Shown piece after piece: positions 1 through 44,090 of a stretch of 55,693 bases of DNA. Each line of letters begins with the position of its first letter. Position 1 is the stretch's first letter. The notes under the pieces were generated by a model. The model did no database searches and had not been told where the DNA came from. It was given only the letters and a program-made list of their open reading frames with translations. The position numbers were made by a program, and so were the translations under genes. Origin of the DNA: a virus (lineage: Duplodnaviria > Caudoviricetes); IMG/VR virus record IMGVR_UViG_3300022696_000140, positions 1-55,693 of that record; one strand, given 5' to 3'.

Positions 1-95
1 GTTTTCTTGGTTGAGGCCCCTTGCCTCAACCTCTACTAGTAATATATATAATGGTAAGGGCTGGCGCAAGTATTATTTATATAAATATTAGATTT
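1..95 (-). promoter_or_regulatory. Promoter + stem-loop cassette copy 1 (PeSL-like), running off the window start
   Basis: Minus strand: TTGCGC (69-64), 17 nt, TATATT (46-41), then hairpin GGTTGAGGC-AAGGG-GCCTCAACC (31-9); near-identical to five other copies. Confidence 0.85.
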
Positions 96-166
96 TTTTC
101 ATTCACTTCTTCAAATATAGATTTATCTTCTATGAAATAGATAAATGTTTCATAATTCATATATCT

Positions 167-298
167 TTATACATAATTTTTATAACCCATAGCGTATAAA
201 TAATGTTTTGTGTATATACTTTTCCATACAGCATCACGGGTAAAATACTCAATTTCTTGTGTTCTATGATAGTAGTTAGATGTAATTAAGATGTTGAT
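167..298 (-). pseudogene. Microprotein array member L (INILITSNYYHRTQEIEYF..., 43 codons); ATC where siblings have ATG
   Basis: Hand translation; keeps the L-x-T-x-N-x3-R-x6-F motif; in-frame TAG two codons upstream. Confidence 0.5.
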
Positions 299-432
299 AT
301 ACTAACAGACCTTCCTTCCAAAGTATAATATACATTGAAAGATACATGATTTTTGGGAGAAATTATAATCATCCTAAAATAGTTTTCCGCTATCGATCTT
401 GAGAATTGGTTGTATGTTATTAAATGAATCAT
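286..432 (-). CDS. Microprotein array member K, 48 aa (MIHLITYNQFSRSIAENYF...)
   Basis: Hand translation; ATGA overlap with member J; family motif. Confidence 0.7.
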   Translation of the reverse strand: MIHLITYNQFSRSIAENYFRMIIISPKNHVSFNVYYTLEGRSVSISTS

Positions 433-554
433 AACCCATACGACATGACAATTGGTCTATAGAAATAATTATATATTTCAATATTTGTATCAATACGTAA
501 CATGCCAAACGCACATAATCTATGATAAGAATTGCCTGTTTGTAAATATCGCAT
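429..554 (-). CDS. Microprotein array member J, 41 aa (MRYLQTGNSYHRLCAFGML...)
   Basis: C-terminal part of ORF-track 429..632; start reassigned to the ATG at 554, 4 nt after the stop of member I; family motif. Confidence 0.7.
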   Translation of the reverse strand: MRYLQTGNSYHRLCAFGMLRIDTNIEIYNYFYRPIVMSYGL

Positions 555-558
555 AAAA

Positions 559-696
559 TTATGGAGTATACAATATACTAATAAATTCATATTTAAAATA
601 ATACATAGATGGTATATGATAAATAAGAACATACATCGAAAATGTTTTAGTGTTCATGCACCTAAATCTTTCATTGATTGGTTCTAAATATAGCAT
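559..696 (-). CDS. Microprotein array member I, 45 aa (MLYLEPINERFRCMNTKTF...)
   Basis: Hand translation; family motif. Confidence 0.72.
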   Translation of the reverse strand: MLYLEPINERFRCMNTKTFSMYVLIYHIPSMYYFKYEFISILYTP

Positions 697-709
697 TTTC
701 GATAAAATT

Positions 710-859
710 CTACAAAATAGGCATTGAATAAATAAGACTATAAACCCAAATACTTTTAGATTTTATTAGAGTTTCATTATGGCGCACGCTCCACGAAAAC
801 CATATATTGTCATAATATCTAATATAAGCGTTTATTGTAACTAAATACAATGTATTCAT
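710..859 (-). CDS. Microprotein array member H, 49 aa (MNTLYLVTINAYIRYYDNIWF...)
   Basis: Hand translation; family motif. Confidence 0.7.
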   Translation of the reverse strand: MNTLYLVTINAYIRYYDNIWFSWSVRHNETLIKSKSIWVYSLIYSMPIL

Positions 860-883
860 GTTATTCCAATTTTAAGAAAAAAA

Positions 884-1027
884 TCACTGTCTGCTATAGC
901 TTGCGTACCCATAATCACGAAATGTATGTGTACACGATCTTATCGTAGCATCATCATTTAAATACAGCTTAAAAATAGTGATGTGTACATATCTATAGTG
1001 TTCATTCAAAGTTTTTAAATAGATCAT
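884..1027 (-). CDS. Microprotein array member G, 47 aa (MIYLKTLNEHYRYVHITIF...)
   Basis: Hand translation; family motif; alternative in-frame ATG at 1036. Confidence 0.72.
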   Translation of the reverse strand: MIYLKTLNEHYRYVHITIFKLYLNDDATIRSCTHTFRDYGYASYSRQ

Positions 1028-1044
1028 TCTAATCATTCTAATTT

Positions 1045-1200
1045 TTACAAAGTTTTTAAATCATCATCAGAATATCCTGTAAGCCAACTAACAAAATAGT
1101 ATGGATTATATTCGAGTGTAATTCCAAATAATATATCTTCTTTAAAAGATTGAATTGTTAGACATCTATAGTTTTCATTCAAAGTTTCTAAATAGATCAT
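1045..1200 (-). CDS. Microprotein array member F, 51 aa (MIYLETLNENYRCLTIQSF...)
   Basis: Hand translation; starts 1 nt after the stop of member E; family motif. Confidence 0.75.
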   Translation of the reverse strand: MIYLETLNENYRCLTIQSFKEDILFGITLEYNPYYFVSWLTGYSDDDLKTL

Positions 1201-1201
1201 A

Positions 1202-1357
1202 TCAGAAGTTTTTATCATAATATAAATAGCTTATTTGATTATATGTATAAAAATATGGTTTACATAATTCTTCATCAAAACAATCTCCCATAGAAAATTC
1301 AAAATTTTTTATTTTCATTCCCCTAAAATACTCATTAATTGTTTCTAAATAAATCAT
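1202..1357 (-). CDS. Microprotein array member E, 51 aa (MIYLETINEYFRGMKIKNF...)
   Basis: Hand translation; ATGA overlap with member D; family motif. Confidence 0.75.
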   Translation of the reverse strand: MIYLETINEYFRGMKIKNFEFSMGDCFDEELCKPYFYTYNQISYLYYDKNF

Positions 1358-1488
1358 AAAAAATAATATCCATTACGATACACACTCAAACGAATATATT
1401 GAATACCAACAAAATAAAATAGATATTGATCAAAATCATTTAAATTACATGCTCTAAAAAAAGCATTCTCATTTTCTAAATAGATCAT
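1354..1488 (-). CDS. Microprotein array member D, 44 aa (MIYLENENAFFRACNLNDF...)
   Basis: Hand translation; ATGA overlaps at both ends; family motif. Confidence 0.75.
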   Translation of the reverse strand: MIYLENENAFFRACNLNDFDQYLFYFVGIQYIRLSVYRNGYYFL

Positions 1489-1610
1489 ATACGATAAAAT
1501 GGTTTAAAAGGTTCATAATAAAAACAATTCTCAATATTTAATATAAATATTTTAAAACTAGAAATTTGACAACTTCTAAACCATTCATTTTGAGTCGTTA
1601 AATATTTCAT
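1485..1610 (-). CDS. Microprotein array member C, 41 aa (MKYLTTQNEWFRSCQISSF...)
   Basis: Hand translation; ATGA overlaps at both ends; family motif. Confidence 0.75.
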   Translation of the reverse strand: MKYLTTQNEWFRSCQISSFKIFILNIENCFYYEPFKPFYRI

Positions 1611-1753
1611 GATTTATTTTCTATTGTAGTCATCTCAAGATAGATATTGCTGTAATCTTCATGAGTATAGCAGTTTATAGACATACAGAAAATATACATT
1701 TCATACCAACGAAAACTATAATTTTGACAAACTAAATAAATTTCATTTTTCAT
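1607..1753 (-). CDS. Microprotein array member B, 48 aa (MKNEIYLVCQNYSFRWYEMYIF...)
   Basis: Hand translation; ATGA overlap with member C; family motif. Confidence 0.7.
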   Translation of the reverse strand: MKNEIYLVCQNYSFRWYEMYIFCMSINCYTHEDYSNIYLEMTTIENKS

Positions 1754-1889
1754 AAAAATCTAAATCTACTTCTATAATGTAAAATCCCTGAAGTGAGGAA
1801 TATAAATTGTTTAGAATTTCAATTGGATAGTTACATAATAATTCAATTGGACAAAATCTATAAATTGCTGATACAGTTCTATAATACAT
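1743..1889 (-). CDS. Microprotein array member A, 48 aa (MYYRTVSAIYRFCPIELL...), divergent
   Basis: Hand translation; overlaps start of member B; keeps Y, T and YR of the motif. Confidence 0.55.
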   Translation of the reverse strand: MYYRTVSAIYRFCPIELLCNYPIEILNNLYSSLQGFYIIEVDLDFYEK

Positions 1890-1924
1890 ACAAAATTCTT
1901 TCTTTAAAAACGTATTTCGATCAA

Positions 1925-1969
1925 ATATTTAGTCATAAATGGCAATATTTAGTGTTTATGACTAAATAT
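1925..1969. repeat. Perfect 15-bp inverted repeat with 15-nt loop upstream of the microprotein array
   Basis: ATATTTAGTCATAAA (1925-1939) / TTTATGACTAAATAT (1955-1969). Confidence 0.8.
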
Positions 1970-1986
1970 AAAATCAATATCTATTT

Positions 1987-2175
1987 TTATGATAAAAAGT
2001 ATTCAATCGATTCTGTTTGACGTTTTGAACACTCAATCAATCTTTCTGGGTTTGCAACAACACCCAAAGAAGAATCTCTTAAACTTACAAGAAGAACTCC
2101 GCCTTTATGATTTTTAAGGGTAGATTTTCTCCAACATCTACCCTTAAACCACACATATTTTTTCTTATTTTCCAT
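1987..2175 (-). CDS. Hypothetical protein
   Basis: ORF track 1987..2211; ATG at 2175 (MENKKKYVWF) preferred. Confidence 0.55.
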   Translation of the reverse strand: MENKKKYVWFKGRCWRKSTLKNHKGGVLLVSLRDSSLGVVANPERLIECSKRQTESIEYFLS

Positions 2176-2214
2176 AAATAAATATATATATAATGTTAGA
2201 AAGGTTTGCAAGTA

Positions 2215-2424
2215 TTATTCAAAAAATTCTTCAAATGCAACTCCGAGCTGCAGCTCAAAATCATATTCATCCTGCCATATTCCCACGTTTTGGGCTGGGA
2301 ATAGTGTAGAGAGCATATTATACTCTTCTTTGCTCATATGGCCTTTGTGAGAGACTTCTGCGTTGAGAATTTTGTCTTCTTTTTCAGTAAGTTCTCCATT
2401 GAGCCAGTTTTCATAATTTTTCAT
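2215..2424 (-). CDS. Hypothetical acidic protein
   Basis: ORF with AAGGAGATGGAAAATG initiation signal. Confidence 0.75.
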   Translation of the reverse strand: MKNYENWLNGELTEKEDKILNAEVSHKGHMSKEEYNMLSTLFPAQNVGIWQDEYDFELQLGVAFEEFFE

Positions 2425-3170: not shown

Positions 3171-3285
3171 CTCAAAACTTCCTTTTTGGTTTGTTTTTGG
3201 TTGAGGCCCCTTGCCTCAACCTCTACTAATAATATATATAATGGCACTGACGTGCGCAAGTATTATTTATATAAATAGTGTATTT
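3171..3285 (-). promoter_or_regulatory. Promoter + stem-loop cassette copy 2
   Basis: TTGCGC-17-TATATT, GGTTGAGGC/GCCTCAACC hairpin, A-rich leader, AAGGAAG RBS. Confidence 0.85.
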
Positions 3286-4643: not shown

Positions 4644-4765
4644 TTTCCCATCTCCTTTTTTGGTTTTCTTGGTTGAGGCCCCTCGCCTCAACCTCTACTA
4701 GTAATATATATAATGGCACTATCGTGCGCAAGTATTATTTATATAAATAGTGTATTTTTTTGAGA
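4644..4765 (-). promoter_or_regulatory. Promoter + stem-loop cassette copy 3
   Basis: Same -35/-10, hairpin (loop GAGGG) and AAGGAGATGG leader. Confidence 0.85.
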
Positions 4766-5225: not shown

Positions 5226-5308
5226 AAAAACCTCCTTAGATGGTTTAAAAAATTATGAGAATCCAATATGGTATCCTCAAAAATATTTATAATTTTAACA
5301 CAAAAAAA

Positions 5309-5382
5309 CACCTCGTGATAGACTCGAACTATCAACCCTCAGAGTAGAAATCTGATGCTCTATCCAATTGAGCTAACGAGGC
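5309..5382 (-). tRNA. tRNA-Arg(UCU)
   Basis: GCCTCGT/ACGAGGT acceptor, TCAGA-TTTCTAC-TCTGA anticodon arm, GTTCGAG T-loop; no encoded CCA. Confidence 0.9.
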
Positions 5383-5399
5383 AATGATTAAAAATAAAA

Positions 5400-6727: not shown

Positions 6728-6779
6728 TCTTTACCTCCATTTAATGAATGTTCATTCATATTTATAATATTTACACAAA

Positions 6780-6863
6780 TACTCATGGTGGGACTCGAAC
6801 CCACAAGAACTATTGTTCACTGGATTTTAAGTCCAGAGCGTTTACCAATTTCGCCACATGAGC
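6780..6863 (-). tRNA. tRNA-Leu(UAA)
   Basis: GCTCATG/CATGAGT acceptor, CTGGA-CTTAAAA-TCCAG arm, long variable arm. Confidence 0.92.
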
Positions 6864-7050
6864 AATTTATTATCTAAAAAAACCTAAAACATCGAACAGT
6901 GAATAACCAGCAATTTCAAGAATGATTACAATATATAAAATATTAAAACCAAATGAAAATAAATTAACAAATCCTTTTGTTAAAAGTTTAAAAACCATCA
7001 TAATTAGAAATATTATTGTTAACAAAAATATCATTTTATACAATCCTCAG

Positions 7051-11136: not shown

Positions 11137-11225
11137 CTCAAAACTTCCTTTTTGGTTTGTTTTTGGTTGAGGCCCCTTGCCTCAACCTCTACTAATAATA
11201 TATATAATGGTAAAAGAAAAACAAA
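11137..11225 (-). promoter_or_regulatory. Promoter + stem-loop cassette copy 4 (variant -35, no upstream palindrome)
   Basis: Leader, hairpin and -10 match copy 2; TTGCGC replaced by TTGTTT-like sequence. Confidence 0.8.
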
Positions 11226-11230
11226 CACAT

Positions 11231-11596
11231 TTAAAGTATTTCTAAATGCATATCCTCCCCTTTGTTTATTGCTGAGTAAAACCATACACCATTTTGAAAA
11301 ACGTATATGTATTCTGCATCAGATGCATCGCAATAATCTTGCAATTTTTCTCTATATACATTCTTGGAATAAAAACCGTCAGATAAATGATTGATACTTC
11401 CATCCTCTTCAAAATTTTTGATGTCATTGCCGTTACCATCACCATCAAAAATTTCATCTGGATGTTTTGAGTTGATGCCATTATAATGGGTTTTTAAGAT
11501 TTTACCATTATATTCTGGATAACCATCATAGTGACAATAAATTACGTCATATCTATTGTCCTCTACTAATCTTGCGATAAGTGATCTTGTGGCCAT
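11231..11596 (-). CDS. Conserved hypothetical phage early protein
   Basis: MATRSLI...IYCHYDGYP motif; lies between two cassettes. Confidence 0.8.
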   Translation of the reverse strand: MATRSLIARLVEDNRYDVIYCHYDGYPEYNGKILKTHYNGINSKHPDEIFDGDGNGNDIKNFEEDGSINHLSDGFYSKNVYREKLQDYCDASDAEYIYVFQNGVWFYSAINKGEDMHLEIL

Positions 11597-11720
11597 TTTT
11601 CCATCTCCTTTTTTGGTTTTCTTGGTTGAGGCCCCTCACCTCAACCTCTACTAATAATATATATAATGGCACTATCGTGCGCAAGTATTATTTATATAAA
11701 TATTAGATTTTTTTGAGAAA
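11597..11720 (-). promoter_or_regulatory. Promoter + stem-loop cassette copy 5
   Basis: TTGCGC-17-TATATT; hairpin GGTTGAGGT-GAGGG-GCCTCAACC (U-G wobble variant). Confidence 0.85.
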
Positions 11721-43980: not shown

Positions 43981-44090
43981 TTCTCATCTCCTTTTTTTGG
44001 TTTTGTGGTTGAGGCCCCTTGCCTCAACCTCTACTAATAATATATATAATGGCACTGACGTGCGCAAGTATTATTTATGTAAATAATAAA
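43981..44090 (-). promoter_or_regulatory. Promoter + stem-loop cassette copy 6
   Basis: TTGCGC-17-TATATT, identical hairpin, AAGGAGATG leader. Confidence 0.85.

What the first reader, a model, noticed from the sequence alone, without database searches (positions are those of the whole stretch)
167..1889. Hidden tandem array of 12 microproteins with a constant N-terminal motif and hypervariable tails
Seen: the ORF track leaves this 1.7 kb nearly empty, but hand translation of the minus strand gives 12 consecutive 41-51 aa ORFs. N-termini: MYYRTVSAIYRFCPIELL, (MKNE)IYLVCQNYSFRWYEMYIF, MKYLTTQNEWFRSCQISSF, MIYLENENAFFRACNLNDF, MIYLETINEYFRGMKIKNF, MIYLETLNENYRCLTIQSF, MIYLKTLNEHYRYVHITIF, (MNT)LYLVTINAYIRYYDNIWF, MLYLEPINERFRCMNTKTF, MRYLQTGNSYHRLCAFGML, MIHLITYNQFSRSIAENYF, INILITSNYYHRTQEIEYF. 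Consensus Y-L-x-T-x-N-x-x-[FYH]-R-x6-F with ungapped spacing: R 12/12, L and N 11/12, F 10/12. The remaining ~25-30 residues are Tyr/Phe-rich and not alignable by eye. Synonymous codons at conserved sites (R = AGA/AGG/CGT, N = AAT/AAC, F = TTT/TTC) suggest selection on the peptide. Inference: a phage-encoded peptide library, with a constant docking/leader element and variable effector ends. Possible roles are anti-defence or host-protein inhibitors, swappable specificity subunits, or modified-peptide precursors. I recognise no named family.
Basis: partly seen in the sequence, partly recalled or inferred. Interest (0 to 1): 0.93.

Follow-up and report, generated by a model that had tools for sequence, protein, structure and literature searches.

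The report
Tandem orphan microprotein genes, T4-like phage
A distant T4-like phage carries a head-to-tail run of twelve tiny, tyrosine-rich genes that share a 19-residue start and little else; they look like real genes of a nearly unique family, but what they do is untested.

Summary
On the minus strand of 167-1889 lie 12 consecutive 41-51 codon frames. They cover 99% of the stretch, against at most 80% in 1000 shuffles. Ten carry L-x3-N-x3-R-x6-F. Caveats: the last unit has no ATG/GTG/TTG start, unit 1 fits the motif poorly, and only 9 of 12 are recovered by a leave-one-out profile.

Protein-level selection is the better reading. The codon-usage score exceeds that of shuffled open frames (P 5e-5). 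Arg, Asn, Thr and Phe codons vary as in the rest of the genome. There is no consensus RNA structure.

The window is a 27%-complete record of a distant T4-like phage. The array sits in an orphan-gene region with PeSL-like promoter/stem-loop cassettes. It lacks Shine-Dalgarno sites (1 of 12, against 26 of 34 long genes).

No Pfam, PHROG, NCBIfam or PDB match was found. Among 1.84 billion representatives there was one credible outside relative, and a word search found its variant with a replaced tail.

Function is unknown. My best guess is early host-directed binders. The RiPP and capsid-targeting readings found no support. Interest is moderate.

The parts
2186..2216 (-). Sigma-70-like promoter (AATACTTGC-N17-TATAT), the nearest one upstream of the array. 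The same exact pattern heads five other cassettes in the window.
   Evidence: exact matches on the minus strand at 44-74, 2186-2216, 3234-3264, 4706-4736, 11659-11689 and 44042-44072. That it works as a promoter is inferred.
1987..2175 (-). 62-aa orphan ORF between the promoter and the array, probably co-transcribed. Possibly a small beta-barrel.
   Evidence: no Pfam or PHROG match. Atlas model pLDDT 0.67, with small beta-barrel domains as nearest models (TM 0.6-0.69 by query). This is a lead only.
1902..1992 (-). Long A/U-rich hairpin in the 97-nt spacer before unit 1. Possible attenuator or processing site.
   Evidence: repeat I1.: -22.5 kcal/mol, z -4.5, 0 of 200 shuffles fold as well; no Rfam family reaches its threshold.
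1743..1889 (-). U1, 48 aa. Weakest member: it has R and Y but lacks the motif's L, N and F.
   Evidence: not recovered when left out (rank 100).
1607..1753 (-). U2, 48 aa, with a 4-residue N-terminal extension. Arg is encoded by CGT. Overlaps U1 by 11 nt.
   Evidence: rank 19 when left out.
1485..1610 (-). U3, 41 aa. ATGA overlap with U2.
   Evidence: E 6.5e-6 when left out.
1354..1488 (-). U4, 44 aa. ATGA overlap with U3.
   Evidence: rank 12, E 0.12.
1202..1357 (-). U5, 51 aa. ATGA overlap with U4.
   Evidence: E 1.9e-5.
1045..1200 (-). U6, 51 aa (57 aa from an upstream ATG at 1218). 1-nt gap after U5.
   Evidence: repeat D2: its first 42 nt are 90% identical to U7.
884..1027 (-). U7, 47 aa (50 aa from the ATG at 1036).
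710..859 (-). U8, 49 aa. Closest unit to the outside relative P0007 over its full length.
   Evidence: score 56 against a maximum of 50 in 500 shuffles.
559..696 (-). U9, 45 aa.
429..554 (-). U10, 41 aa.
286..432 (-). U11, 48 aa. ATGA overlap with U10.
   Evidence: not recovered when left out (rank 134), though L, T, N, R and F are present.
167..301 (-). U12, 44 aa open frame with the motif but no ATG/GTG/TTG start. Either a dead copy or started unconventionally. It is the only unit with an SD-like AAGG upstream.
   Evidence: E 0.0037 when left out.
1..91 (-). Next PeSL-like cassette (TATAAATA, promoter 44-74, G/C-rich stem-loop at about 9-31). It marks the 3' limit of the array's transcription unit and points off the contig end.

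Best explanation
The stretch is a lineage-restricted family of small, soluble, tyrosine-rich proteins, with 11 intact genes and one copy that lacks a start codon. It arose by tandem duplication in an accessory (hyperplastic-type) region of a distant T4-like phage.

Shown:
- The frames are kept open.
- They use the phage's codon preferences.
- The first ~19 residues (consensus M-I-Y-L-x-T-x-N-x-x-[FY]-R-x6-F) are conserved at the protein level.
- The tails have diverged beyond alignment.
- The genes are packed with ATGA overlaps or gaps of 24 nt or less and carry no Shine-Dalgarno sites.
- A relative exists in another metagenomic contig.

Inferred:
- The array is read as one early polycistronic mRNA from the sigma-70-like promoter at 2186-2216, through the 62-aa ORF and the hairpin.
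- Ribosomes pass from unit to unit by termination-reinitiation on an unstructured A/U-rich message.
- The N-terminal module is the common structural or partner-binding core.
- The variable aromatic tails give each copy a different surface.
- The set acts on host molecules early in infection (takeover or counter-defence), as many small early T4 proteins do.
- The conserved 5' segments serve as homology patches for unequal crossing-over and tail replacement.

The confidence given covers 'real, selected small-protein gene family made by tandem duplication'. For the host-directed binder role alone I would give about 0.35.
For: Coding:
- 99% open-frame cover on one strand, against a maximum of 0.80 in 1000 shuffles.
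- With stop codons excluded from the model, the units score +0.051 per codon, with 10 of 12 above 0. Open frames in shuffles of the same DNA score -0.061 +/- 0.099 (P 5e-5). Real gene pieces score +0.193.
- Third-position T is 0.476, against 0.465 in long genes.

Protein-level constraint on the motif:
- Arg is encoded by AGA 9, AGG 2, CGT 1; Asn by AAT 8, AAC 3; Thr by ACT 4, ACA 5; Phe by TTT 9, TTC 1. These are close to genome-wide usage.
- At the conserved Asn, Arg, Phe and Thr codons, third positions are less conserved than first and second positions.
- dN is below dS in 24 of 31 usable pairs, though dS is saturated.
- Tandem Repeats Finder finds no array-length DNA repeat; its one row is a 20-nt, period-9 repeat at 1023-1042.

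Family:
- The motif profile hits only the 12 units in the window, though it was trained on them.
- 9 of 12 are recovered when left out.
- The profile search of 1.84 billion representatives returned five of the window's own proteins, one spurious 632-aa repeat protein, and P0007 (51 aa, E 9.1e-4), which carries every motif position.
- P0007 aligns over its full length with U8.

Context:
- T4-like replication and portal genes.
- Neighbours are orphans.
- PeSL-like cassettes are present. PeSLs and orphan shuffling in T4-type hyperplastic regions are described in PMC2839356 (passages read) and PMC4122927 (abstract read).
- Tandem amplification of a small counter-defence gene in T4 is described in PMC9391042 (abstract read).
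- Tandem arrays of more than 30 genes occur in phages G and 121Q (PMC5646251, passage read).

Protein character: no transmembrane segment (highest 19-residue Kyte-Doolittle mean 1.02) and Tyr 8-20% in every unit.
Against: - No Shine-Dalgarno core before 11 of 12 units, including the first, while 26 of 34 long ATG genes have one. Translation may therefore be weak.
- The codon score is well below that of core genes (0.051 against 0.193). Split into head and tail, only 6 of 12 halves score above 0 in each.
- U12 has no start codon, and U1, U2 and U11 are not recovered by the leave-one-out profile.
- Leu at the motif is TTA in 11 of 11 units, although TTA is only 46% of Leu codons genome-wide. Some nucleotide-level constraint or recent homogenisation therefore acts on the first codons.
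- Both structure models are of low confidence (pLDDT 68.6 and 64.2), so no fold supports a 'binder' role.
- There is no expression data and no functional homologue, and only two outside relatives, whose DNA and neighbourhood I could not fetch.
Confidence: 0.62

Rival explanations
1. Decaying 'accordion'. A single small gene was amplified under transient selection for dosage, and most copies are now drifting. Only the shared head, or one or two copies, still matters. The variable tails are neutral wreckage, not a designed library.
For: - U12 lacks a start codon and U1 has lost three motif residues.
- There are no SD sites.
- The coding score is weaker than in core genes.
- The tails show no similarity above shuffles.
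- T4 is known to amplify a small counter-defence gene rapidly (PMC9391042, abstract read).
Against: - All 12 frames stay open in 25% G+C DNA, where shuffles reach at most 80% cover. Drift would have closed the tails quickly.
- Tyr enrichment is uniform across the units.
- P0007 from another contig aligns with U8 through the tail.
Confidence: 0.15
2. Capsid-targeted, injected peptides. The constant N-terminus would work like the capsid targeting sequence (CTS) of T-even internal proteins, loading diverse small effectors into the prohead for delivery with the DNA.
For: - T-even internal proteins are described as a highly diverse set of defence proteins with only a conserved CTS (PMC3012670, passage read).
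- Their CTS propeptides are 10-19 residues long (PMC9026906, passages read).
- The array matches that architecture: a constant ~19-residue head on unrelated bodies.
- In T4 the ip genes lie in the accessory region around the tRNA cluster. Here the array lies about 3.4 kb from the phage's tRNA genes.
Against: - An L/I-x-E site within the first 22 residues occurs in only 5 of 14 members.
- pI ranges from 4.1 to 9.4, with 7 of 14 below 7, and Lys is depleted (3.9% against 10.1%). T4 internal proteins are basic.
- The motif profile scores the T4 IPI, IPII and IPIII N-termini below zero bits.
- No TATAAATA late-promoter motif lies on the coding strand between the array and position 3263.
- No larger protein in the window carries the motif.
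Confidence: 0.1
3. RiPP precursor array. The constant head would be a leader recognised by a maturase encoded elsewhere in the genome, and the Tyr-rich tails would be cores for cross-linking or other modification.
For: - Conserved leader plus hypervariable core in many tandem copies is the classic precursor layout (established knowledge of prochlorosin- and cyanobactin-type loci, recalled).
- Tyr is 15% in the tails.
- 73% of the genome is unseen.
Against: - No radical-SAM or YcaO domain in the 55.7 kb. Other maturase classes were not searched.
- 0 of 14 members match any NCBIfam model.
- The conserved part starts at Met1 and has no recognisable cleavage motif.
- The neighbours are orphans with no enzyme domains.
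- Cys content is low and irregular, 0-3 per unit.
Confidence: 0.05
4. A DNA- or RNA-level repeat (protein-binding sites, recombination anchors or translation-initiation signals) in which the open frames are incidental.
For: - TAT-TTA is invariant at the nucleotide level, with Leu TTA 11 of 11 against 46% genome-wide.
- The 5' segments reach 90% identity over 42 nt between U6 and U7 while the rest is unrelated.
- There are no SD sites.
Against: - Arg is kept through AGA, AGG and CGT, and Asn, Thr and Phe through synonymous codons in genome-like proportions.
- One strand is 99% open.
- There are no conserved base pairs, no array-length TRF repeat and no Rfam family.
- The outside relative was found by protein profile.
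Confidence: 0.05

Closest known systems
Orphan small genes of the hyperplastic regions of T4-type phages, flanked by PeSL promoter/stem-loop cassettes (Arbiol, Comeau, Krisch 2010, PMC2839356; Comeau et al. 2014, PMC4122927)
   Same: - T4-like genome.
- Block of small genes without database homologues.
- Repeated sigma-70-like promoter plus G/C-rich stem-loop cassettes around it.
- Probable early expression.
   Different: Here one orphan has expanded into 12 head-to-tail copies with no cassette between them. In the window's cassettes the stem-loop follows the promoter rather than acting as an upstream terminator, and its function is not tested.
[quoted passage not shown]
   Same: - Constant short N-terminal module on otherwise unrelated small proteins.
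- Accessory region near the tRNA genes.
- The known example IPI* is an anti-restriction protein.
   Different: - No sequence similarity to the T4 CTS.
- No conserved L/I-x-E site (5 of 14).
- Not basic.
- 41-51 aa against 95-193 aa.
- No late promoter motif upstream.
Tandem gene amplifications in large phages: tifA in evolved T4 (PMC9391042) and the arrays of more than 30 genes in phages G and 121Q (PMC5646251)
   Same: Head-to-tail paralogue array in a large phage genome, plausibly made by recombination between short homologies.
   Different: The published arrays are described as very similar copies. Here the copies keep only about 19 residues in common.
Multi-copy RiPP precursor loci (prochlorosin- or cyanobactin-type; recalled, not fetched)
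   Same: Many tandem small ORFs with a conserved N-terminal part and a hypervariable C-terminal part.
   Different: - No maturase seen.
- No precursor family match.
- No cleavage motif.

Membership tests
T-even internal proteins with capsid targeting sequence | A short (10-19 aa) N-terminal propeptide shared by otherwise unrelated proteins | tested here: met
   A ~19-residue conserved head with unalignable tails. This is a match of architecture only.
T-even internal proteins with capsid targeting sequence | Prohead-protease (gp21) site L/I-x-E at the end of the propeptide | tested here: not met
   Present within the first 22 residues in 5 of 14 members. The specificity of this phage's own protease is unknown.
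T-even internal proteins with capsid targeting sequence | Sequence similarity to the T4 CTS | tested here: not met
   The motif profile scores the T4 IPI and IPIII N-termini at -1.7 and -1.3 bits and reports no hit for IPII (sequences).
T-even internal proteins with capsid targeting sequence | Basic, DNA-associated proteins present in the virion and injected | tested here: inconclusive
   pI 4.1-9.4 and Lys 3.9% argue against basic character. Presence in the virion cannot be tested with these tools.
RiPP precursor peptides | A cognate maturase gene (radical SAM/SPASM, YcaO, LanM and the like) in the same genome, usually adjacent | tested here: inconclusive
   No PF04055 or PF02624 in the 55.7 kb, and the neighbours carry no enzyme domains. 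Other maturase classes were not searched, and only 27% of the genome is held.
RiPP precursor peptides | Match to a known leader or precursor family | tested here: not met
   0 of 14 members match NCBIfam at E up to 1. For Pfam the only hit at E up to 0.05 is one borderline, unrelated match.
PeSL-flanked orphan cassettes of T4-type hyperplastic regions | T4-type genome, with orphan genes clustered between core-gene blocks | tested here: met
   T4-like DNA polymerase, portal, helicase and gp46/47-like genes. No Pfam family for 8 of the 10 neighbours scanned.
PeSL-flanked orphan cassettes of T4-type hyperplastic regions | Repeated composite element of a sigma-70-like promoter and a stable stem-loop flanking the orphans | tested here: met
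   Six exact AATACTTGC-N17-TATAT sites. Stem-loops were read and show up in the repeated frame translations. Promoter and terminator activity are not testable here.
Any named protein family (Pfam, PHROG, NCBIfam, PDB) | Significant profile match | tested here: not met
   The best is PHROG 36142, E 0.0047, for 1 of 14 members, and it has no known function.

The most novel reading that the evidence does not exclude
The array is a phage-encoded combinatorial set of microproteins built on one handle. The conserved 19-residue head would dock every copy to the same phage or host machine. The 5' coding segment would double as the recombination anchor through which tails are replaced between genomes, as in P0007 and P0008, which are identical for 34 residues and then unrelated without being frameshift variants. 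The result would be a fast-evolving panel of aromatic-rich tails, each aimed at a different host target or defence protein.
Probability: 0.2. Interest if true: 0.75.

Novelty: new member of a known kind. Interest (0 to 1): 0.45.

Why it matters
Small phage proteins are where many host-takeover and counter-defence activities have been found, and they are the least annotated part of phage genomes. This is a clean case. Twelve copies in 1.7 kb have a head under protein-level constraint, tails free to change, and no ribosome-binding sites, so it is also a natural test bed for termination-reinitiation translation.

The same scan has noted comparable aromatic-rich microprotein arrays in other uncultured T4-like and jumbo phages (unchecked notes). 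If these arrays prove functional, expanded microprotein families would be a recurrent and so far undescribed feature of large phages. If the array is only a drifting amplification, it still records how T4-like genomes grow by tandem duplication.

Tried and rejected
Relatives:
- Neighbouring proteins gave no relatives in viral contigs (178 aa and 231 aa). The DNA polymerase gave only a 40%-identical relative.
- P0007 gave only short spurious matches in viral contigs and metagenome contigs, which the motif profile rejected.
- Two tandem-motif DNA patterns, both verified on the window, found 22 and 18 stretches in viral contigs. None contained the protein motif at E up to 0.5, 0.5 and 0.1 respectively.
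- blastn of 1-2400 against phages found no match.
- tblastn of P0007 and P0004 against phages gave nothing credible.
- The 178-aa neighbour has no homologue outside the window's own record in the 5.8-billion set.
- The earlier-findings index had no look-alike sequence.

Structure and features:
- ESM Atlas for U5 gave no hit at 0.9 or above.
- Two AlphaFold2 models reached pLDDT 68.6 and 64.2. They were too weak for a fold search, so none was run.
- Complex prediction of the 62-aa upstream ORF with U5 gave no verdict. That is evidence neither way.

Expression: no RNA holder and no sequencing run was listed.

Single recoded ORF: rejected, because the units sit in all three frames.

Frameshift origin of the P0007 and P0008 tails: rejected. 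The longest compatible run was 3 codons, the same as in shuffles.

Internal promoters: consensus hits were at the shuffle level, 26 against 24 +/- 4.8.

Literature: one search for tandem small phage proteins with a conserved N-terminus and variable C-terminus found nothing pertinent. I therefore cannot claim the phenomenon is absent from print. Supplements were closed and not seen. Repoila et al. 1994 and Rifat et al. 2008 are not held.
Full report
What is there. The window is a 55,693-bp IMG/VR virus record that CheckV rates 27% complete. It encodes a T4-type replication and head set: family-B DNA polymerase, DnaB-like and UvsW-like helicases, gp46/47-like nuclease, ribonucleotide reductase and portal. 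The portal is under 30% identical to its best matches, which are cyanomyophages. This is therefore a deep-branching T4-like phage. G+C is about 28% overall and 24.7% in the first 2 kb.

Junctions are tight. Four are ATGA overlaps and one is an 11-nt overlap. The gaps are 1, 17, 24, 13 and 4 nt. The last frame overlaps its predecessor by 16 nt.

Is it more than chance? Frames of 41 or more codons cover 99% of the minus strand and 9% of the plus strand. The best strand of 1000 first-order Markov shuffles averaged 39% and never exceeded 80%. The spaced residues L-x3-N-x3-R-x6-F occur 15 times in all six frames of the window, and 10 of these are in the array. Shuffled windows gave 3.2 on average and 8 at most. 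A tandem version of the motif written as DNA has 4 + 4 matches in the window and none in 100 shuffles.

A leave-one-out profile recovers 9 of the 12 units ahead of every frame outside the array, although U4 reaches only E 0.12. U1, U2 and U11 are missed. U2 and U11 still carry L, N, R and F by eye. U1 has lost L, N and F. U12 has the motif but no ATG, GTG or TTG.

Protein or nucleic-acid signal? A codon model was trained on 30 long genes and normalised over sense codons, so that being open gives no credit. On it the units score +0.051 per codon, with 10 of 12 positive. Open frames from shuffles of the same DNA score -0.061 +/- 0.099 (P 5e-5 for the mean of 12). True gene pieces score +0.193, and wrong-frame ORFs inside genes score -0.378.

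At the conserved residues the synonymous codons appear in about the genome's proportions. Arg is AGA 9, AGG 2, CGT 1, against 0.75, 0.11 and 0.07 genome-wide. Asn is AAT 8, AAC 3. Thr is ACT 4, ACA 5. Phe is TTT 9, TTC 1. dN is below dS in 24 of 31 usable motif pairs, with dS saturated. TRF sees no array-length repeat, and no Rfam family reaches its threshold.

One nucleotide-level signal remains. The motif Leu is TTA in 11 of 11 units, although TTA is only 46% of Leu codons, and the first 42 nt of U6 and U7 are 90% identical. I read this as selection for an A/U-rich start region, recent gene conversion at the 5' ends, or both. It acts on top of the protein constraint, not instead of it.

The proteins. 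The tails share no similarity above shuffles, as protein or as DNA. Tyr is 14% overall and 8-20% in every unit. That compares with 5.0% in 30 long proteins, 4.4% in nine other small ORFs and 8.5% in shuffled frames. Lys is depleted, and no segment is hydrophobic enough for a membrane helix. pI ranges from 4.1 to 9.4. Two AlphaFold2 runs on the 14-row alignment gave pLDDT 68.6 and 64.2. I draw no fold from them.

Relatives. There is no match in Pfam, PHROGs, NCBIfam or PDB sequences. The word-indexed search of 5.8 billion proteins returned only five of the window's own units.

The exhaustive profile search of 1.84 billion representatives returned those five, a spurious 632-aa repeat protein, and P0007. 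P0007 is a 51-aa JGI metagenome protein on a 50,080-bp contig, found at E 9.1e-4, and it has every motif position. It aligns with U8 over its full length, scoring 56 against a maximum of 50 in 500 shuffles.

A second search found P0008, a 70-aa protein on an 11,746-bp contig. It is identical to P0007 for 34 residues and then unrelated. The two tails cannot be frameshift readings of one DNA. They therefore differ by replacement, unless one contig is chimeric.

GenBank phages gave nothing. The family is thus real but nearly confined to this lineage.

Context and expression (inferred). The exact pattern AATACTTGC-N17-TATAT occurs six times on the minus strand. In the copies read, at 44-74 and at the cassettes, it is followed by a G/C-rich stem-loop. 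In four copies it is preceded by TATAAATA. These resemble the PeSL promoter/stem-loop cassettes that flank orphan genes in T4-type hyperplastic regions (PMC2839356, passages; PMC4122927, abstract).

The copy at 2186-2216 has no stem-loop. It is followed by a 62-aa orphan ORF, a strong hairpin (-22.5 kcal/mol, z -4.5) and then the array. The next cassette, at 1-91, closes the unit. No TATAAATA lies on the coding strand between the array and 3263, and promoter-like hits inside the array are at the shuffle level. I therefore infer a single early transcript.

Twenty-six of 34 long ATG genes have an SD core, but only 1 of 12 units does, and that one is the start-less U12. Together with the overlapping stops and starts, this points to termination-reinitiation. 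It also leaves room for poor translation.

Function. Nothing here tests it. My preferred reading is a panel of early, soluble small proteins with a common N-terminal core and divergent aromatic tails that act on host molecules. It rests on the T4 precedent of small early takeover and counter-defence proteins, and on the amplification of tifA under defence pressure (PMC9391042, abstract).

[quoted passage not shown] Its testable features fail here. L/I-x-E occurs in 5 of 14 members, the proteins are not basic, there is no similarity to the T4 CTS, and there is no late promoter motif.

The RiPP reading has no maturase in view and no precursor-family match. A drifting amplification explains U1, U12 and the weak coding score, but not 12 open frames or the full-length U8-P0007 alignment.

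The docking test with the upstream 62-aa ORF gave no verdict.

Novelty. Tandem paralogue arrays in large phages are in print (PMC5646251, passage), and orphan-rich hyperplastic regions are textbook T4 biology. Earlier notes of this scan describe comparable microprotein arrays in other uncultured T4-like and jumbo phages (not checked by me). This array is therefore a new, almost lineage-private member of a known kind. Its unusually sharp head/tail contrast and its SD-less packing make it a good experimental object, but it is not a new category on present evidence.

Noticed in passing
window 1-91, 3171-3271, 4644-4743, 11137-11285, 11597-11696, 43981-44072 (minus strand): Near-identical cassettes: TATAAATA, then the promoter AATACTTGC-N17-TATAT, then a G/C-rich 9-bp stem-loop and an A-rich leader. 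They look like the PeSL elements of T4-type hyperplastic regions, but the stem-loop lies downstream of the promoter. A late-promoter-like TATAAATA abuts four of the six exact promoter sites.
   Followed up: partly
window 1987-2175 (minus strand): 62-aa orphan ORF directly upstream of the array. The ESM Atlas's own model (pLDDT 0.67) is nearest to small beta-barrel domains such as Mu transposase C-terminal and CarD/TRCF RID (TM 0.6-0.69). Earlier scan notes report small barrel genes next to other phage microprotein arrays. A complex prediction with U5 gave no verdict.
   Followed up: partly
window 1902-1992 (minus strand): An A/U-rich hairpin of about 85 nt (-22.5 kcal/mol, z -4.5) between the 62-aa ORF and unit 1. 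It could attenuate, terminate or be a processing site. It is not a known Rfam family.
   Followed up: partly
window 5308-5383 and 6779-6864 (minus strand): The phage encodes tRNA-Arg(UCU) and tRNA-Leu(UAA), which read AGA and TTA. These are the codons used for the motif's invariant Arg (9 of 12) and Leu (11 of 11). It also encodes tRNA-Pro(UGG) and tRNA-Gln(UUG). This probably just reflects A/T-rich codon usage.
   Followed up: no
proteins P0007 and P0008 (JGI metagenome contigs of 50,080 and 11,746 bp; DNA not fetched): Two outside family members are identical for 34 residues and then carry unrelated tails of 17 and 36 residues that are not frameshift variants. This is either tail replacement by recombination or an assembly chimera.
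   Followed up: partly
window 77-160 (minus strand): A 27-aa ORF between the last unit and the next cassette. It has no motif and no family, and may be a remnant of a further unit or non-coding.
   Followed up: no
L084 2079-3627 (Acholeplasma MAG contig, from the genome contigs pattern scan): 12 matches to the tandem DNA pattern, spaced about 198 nt apart in the eight positions listed. This is an unrelated tandem repeat. It does not contain the protein motif.
   Followed up: no
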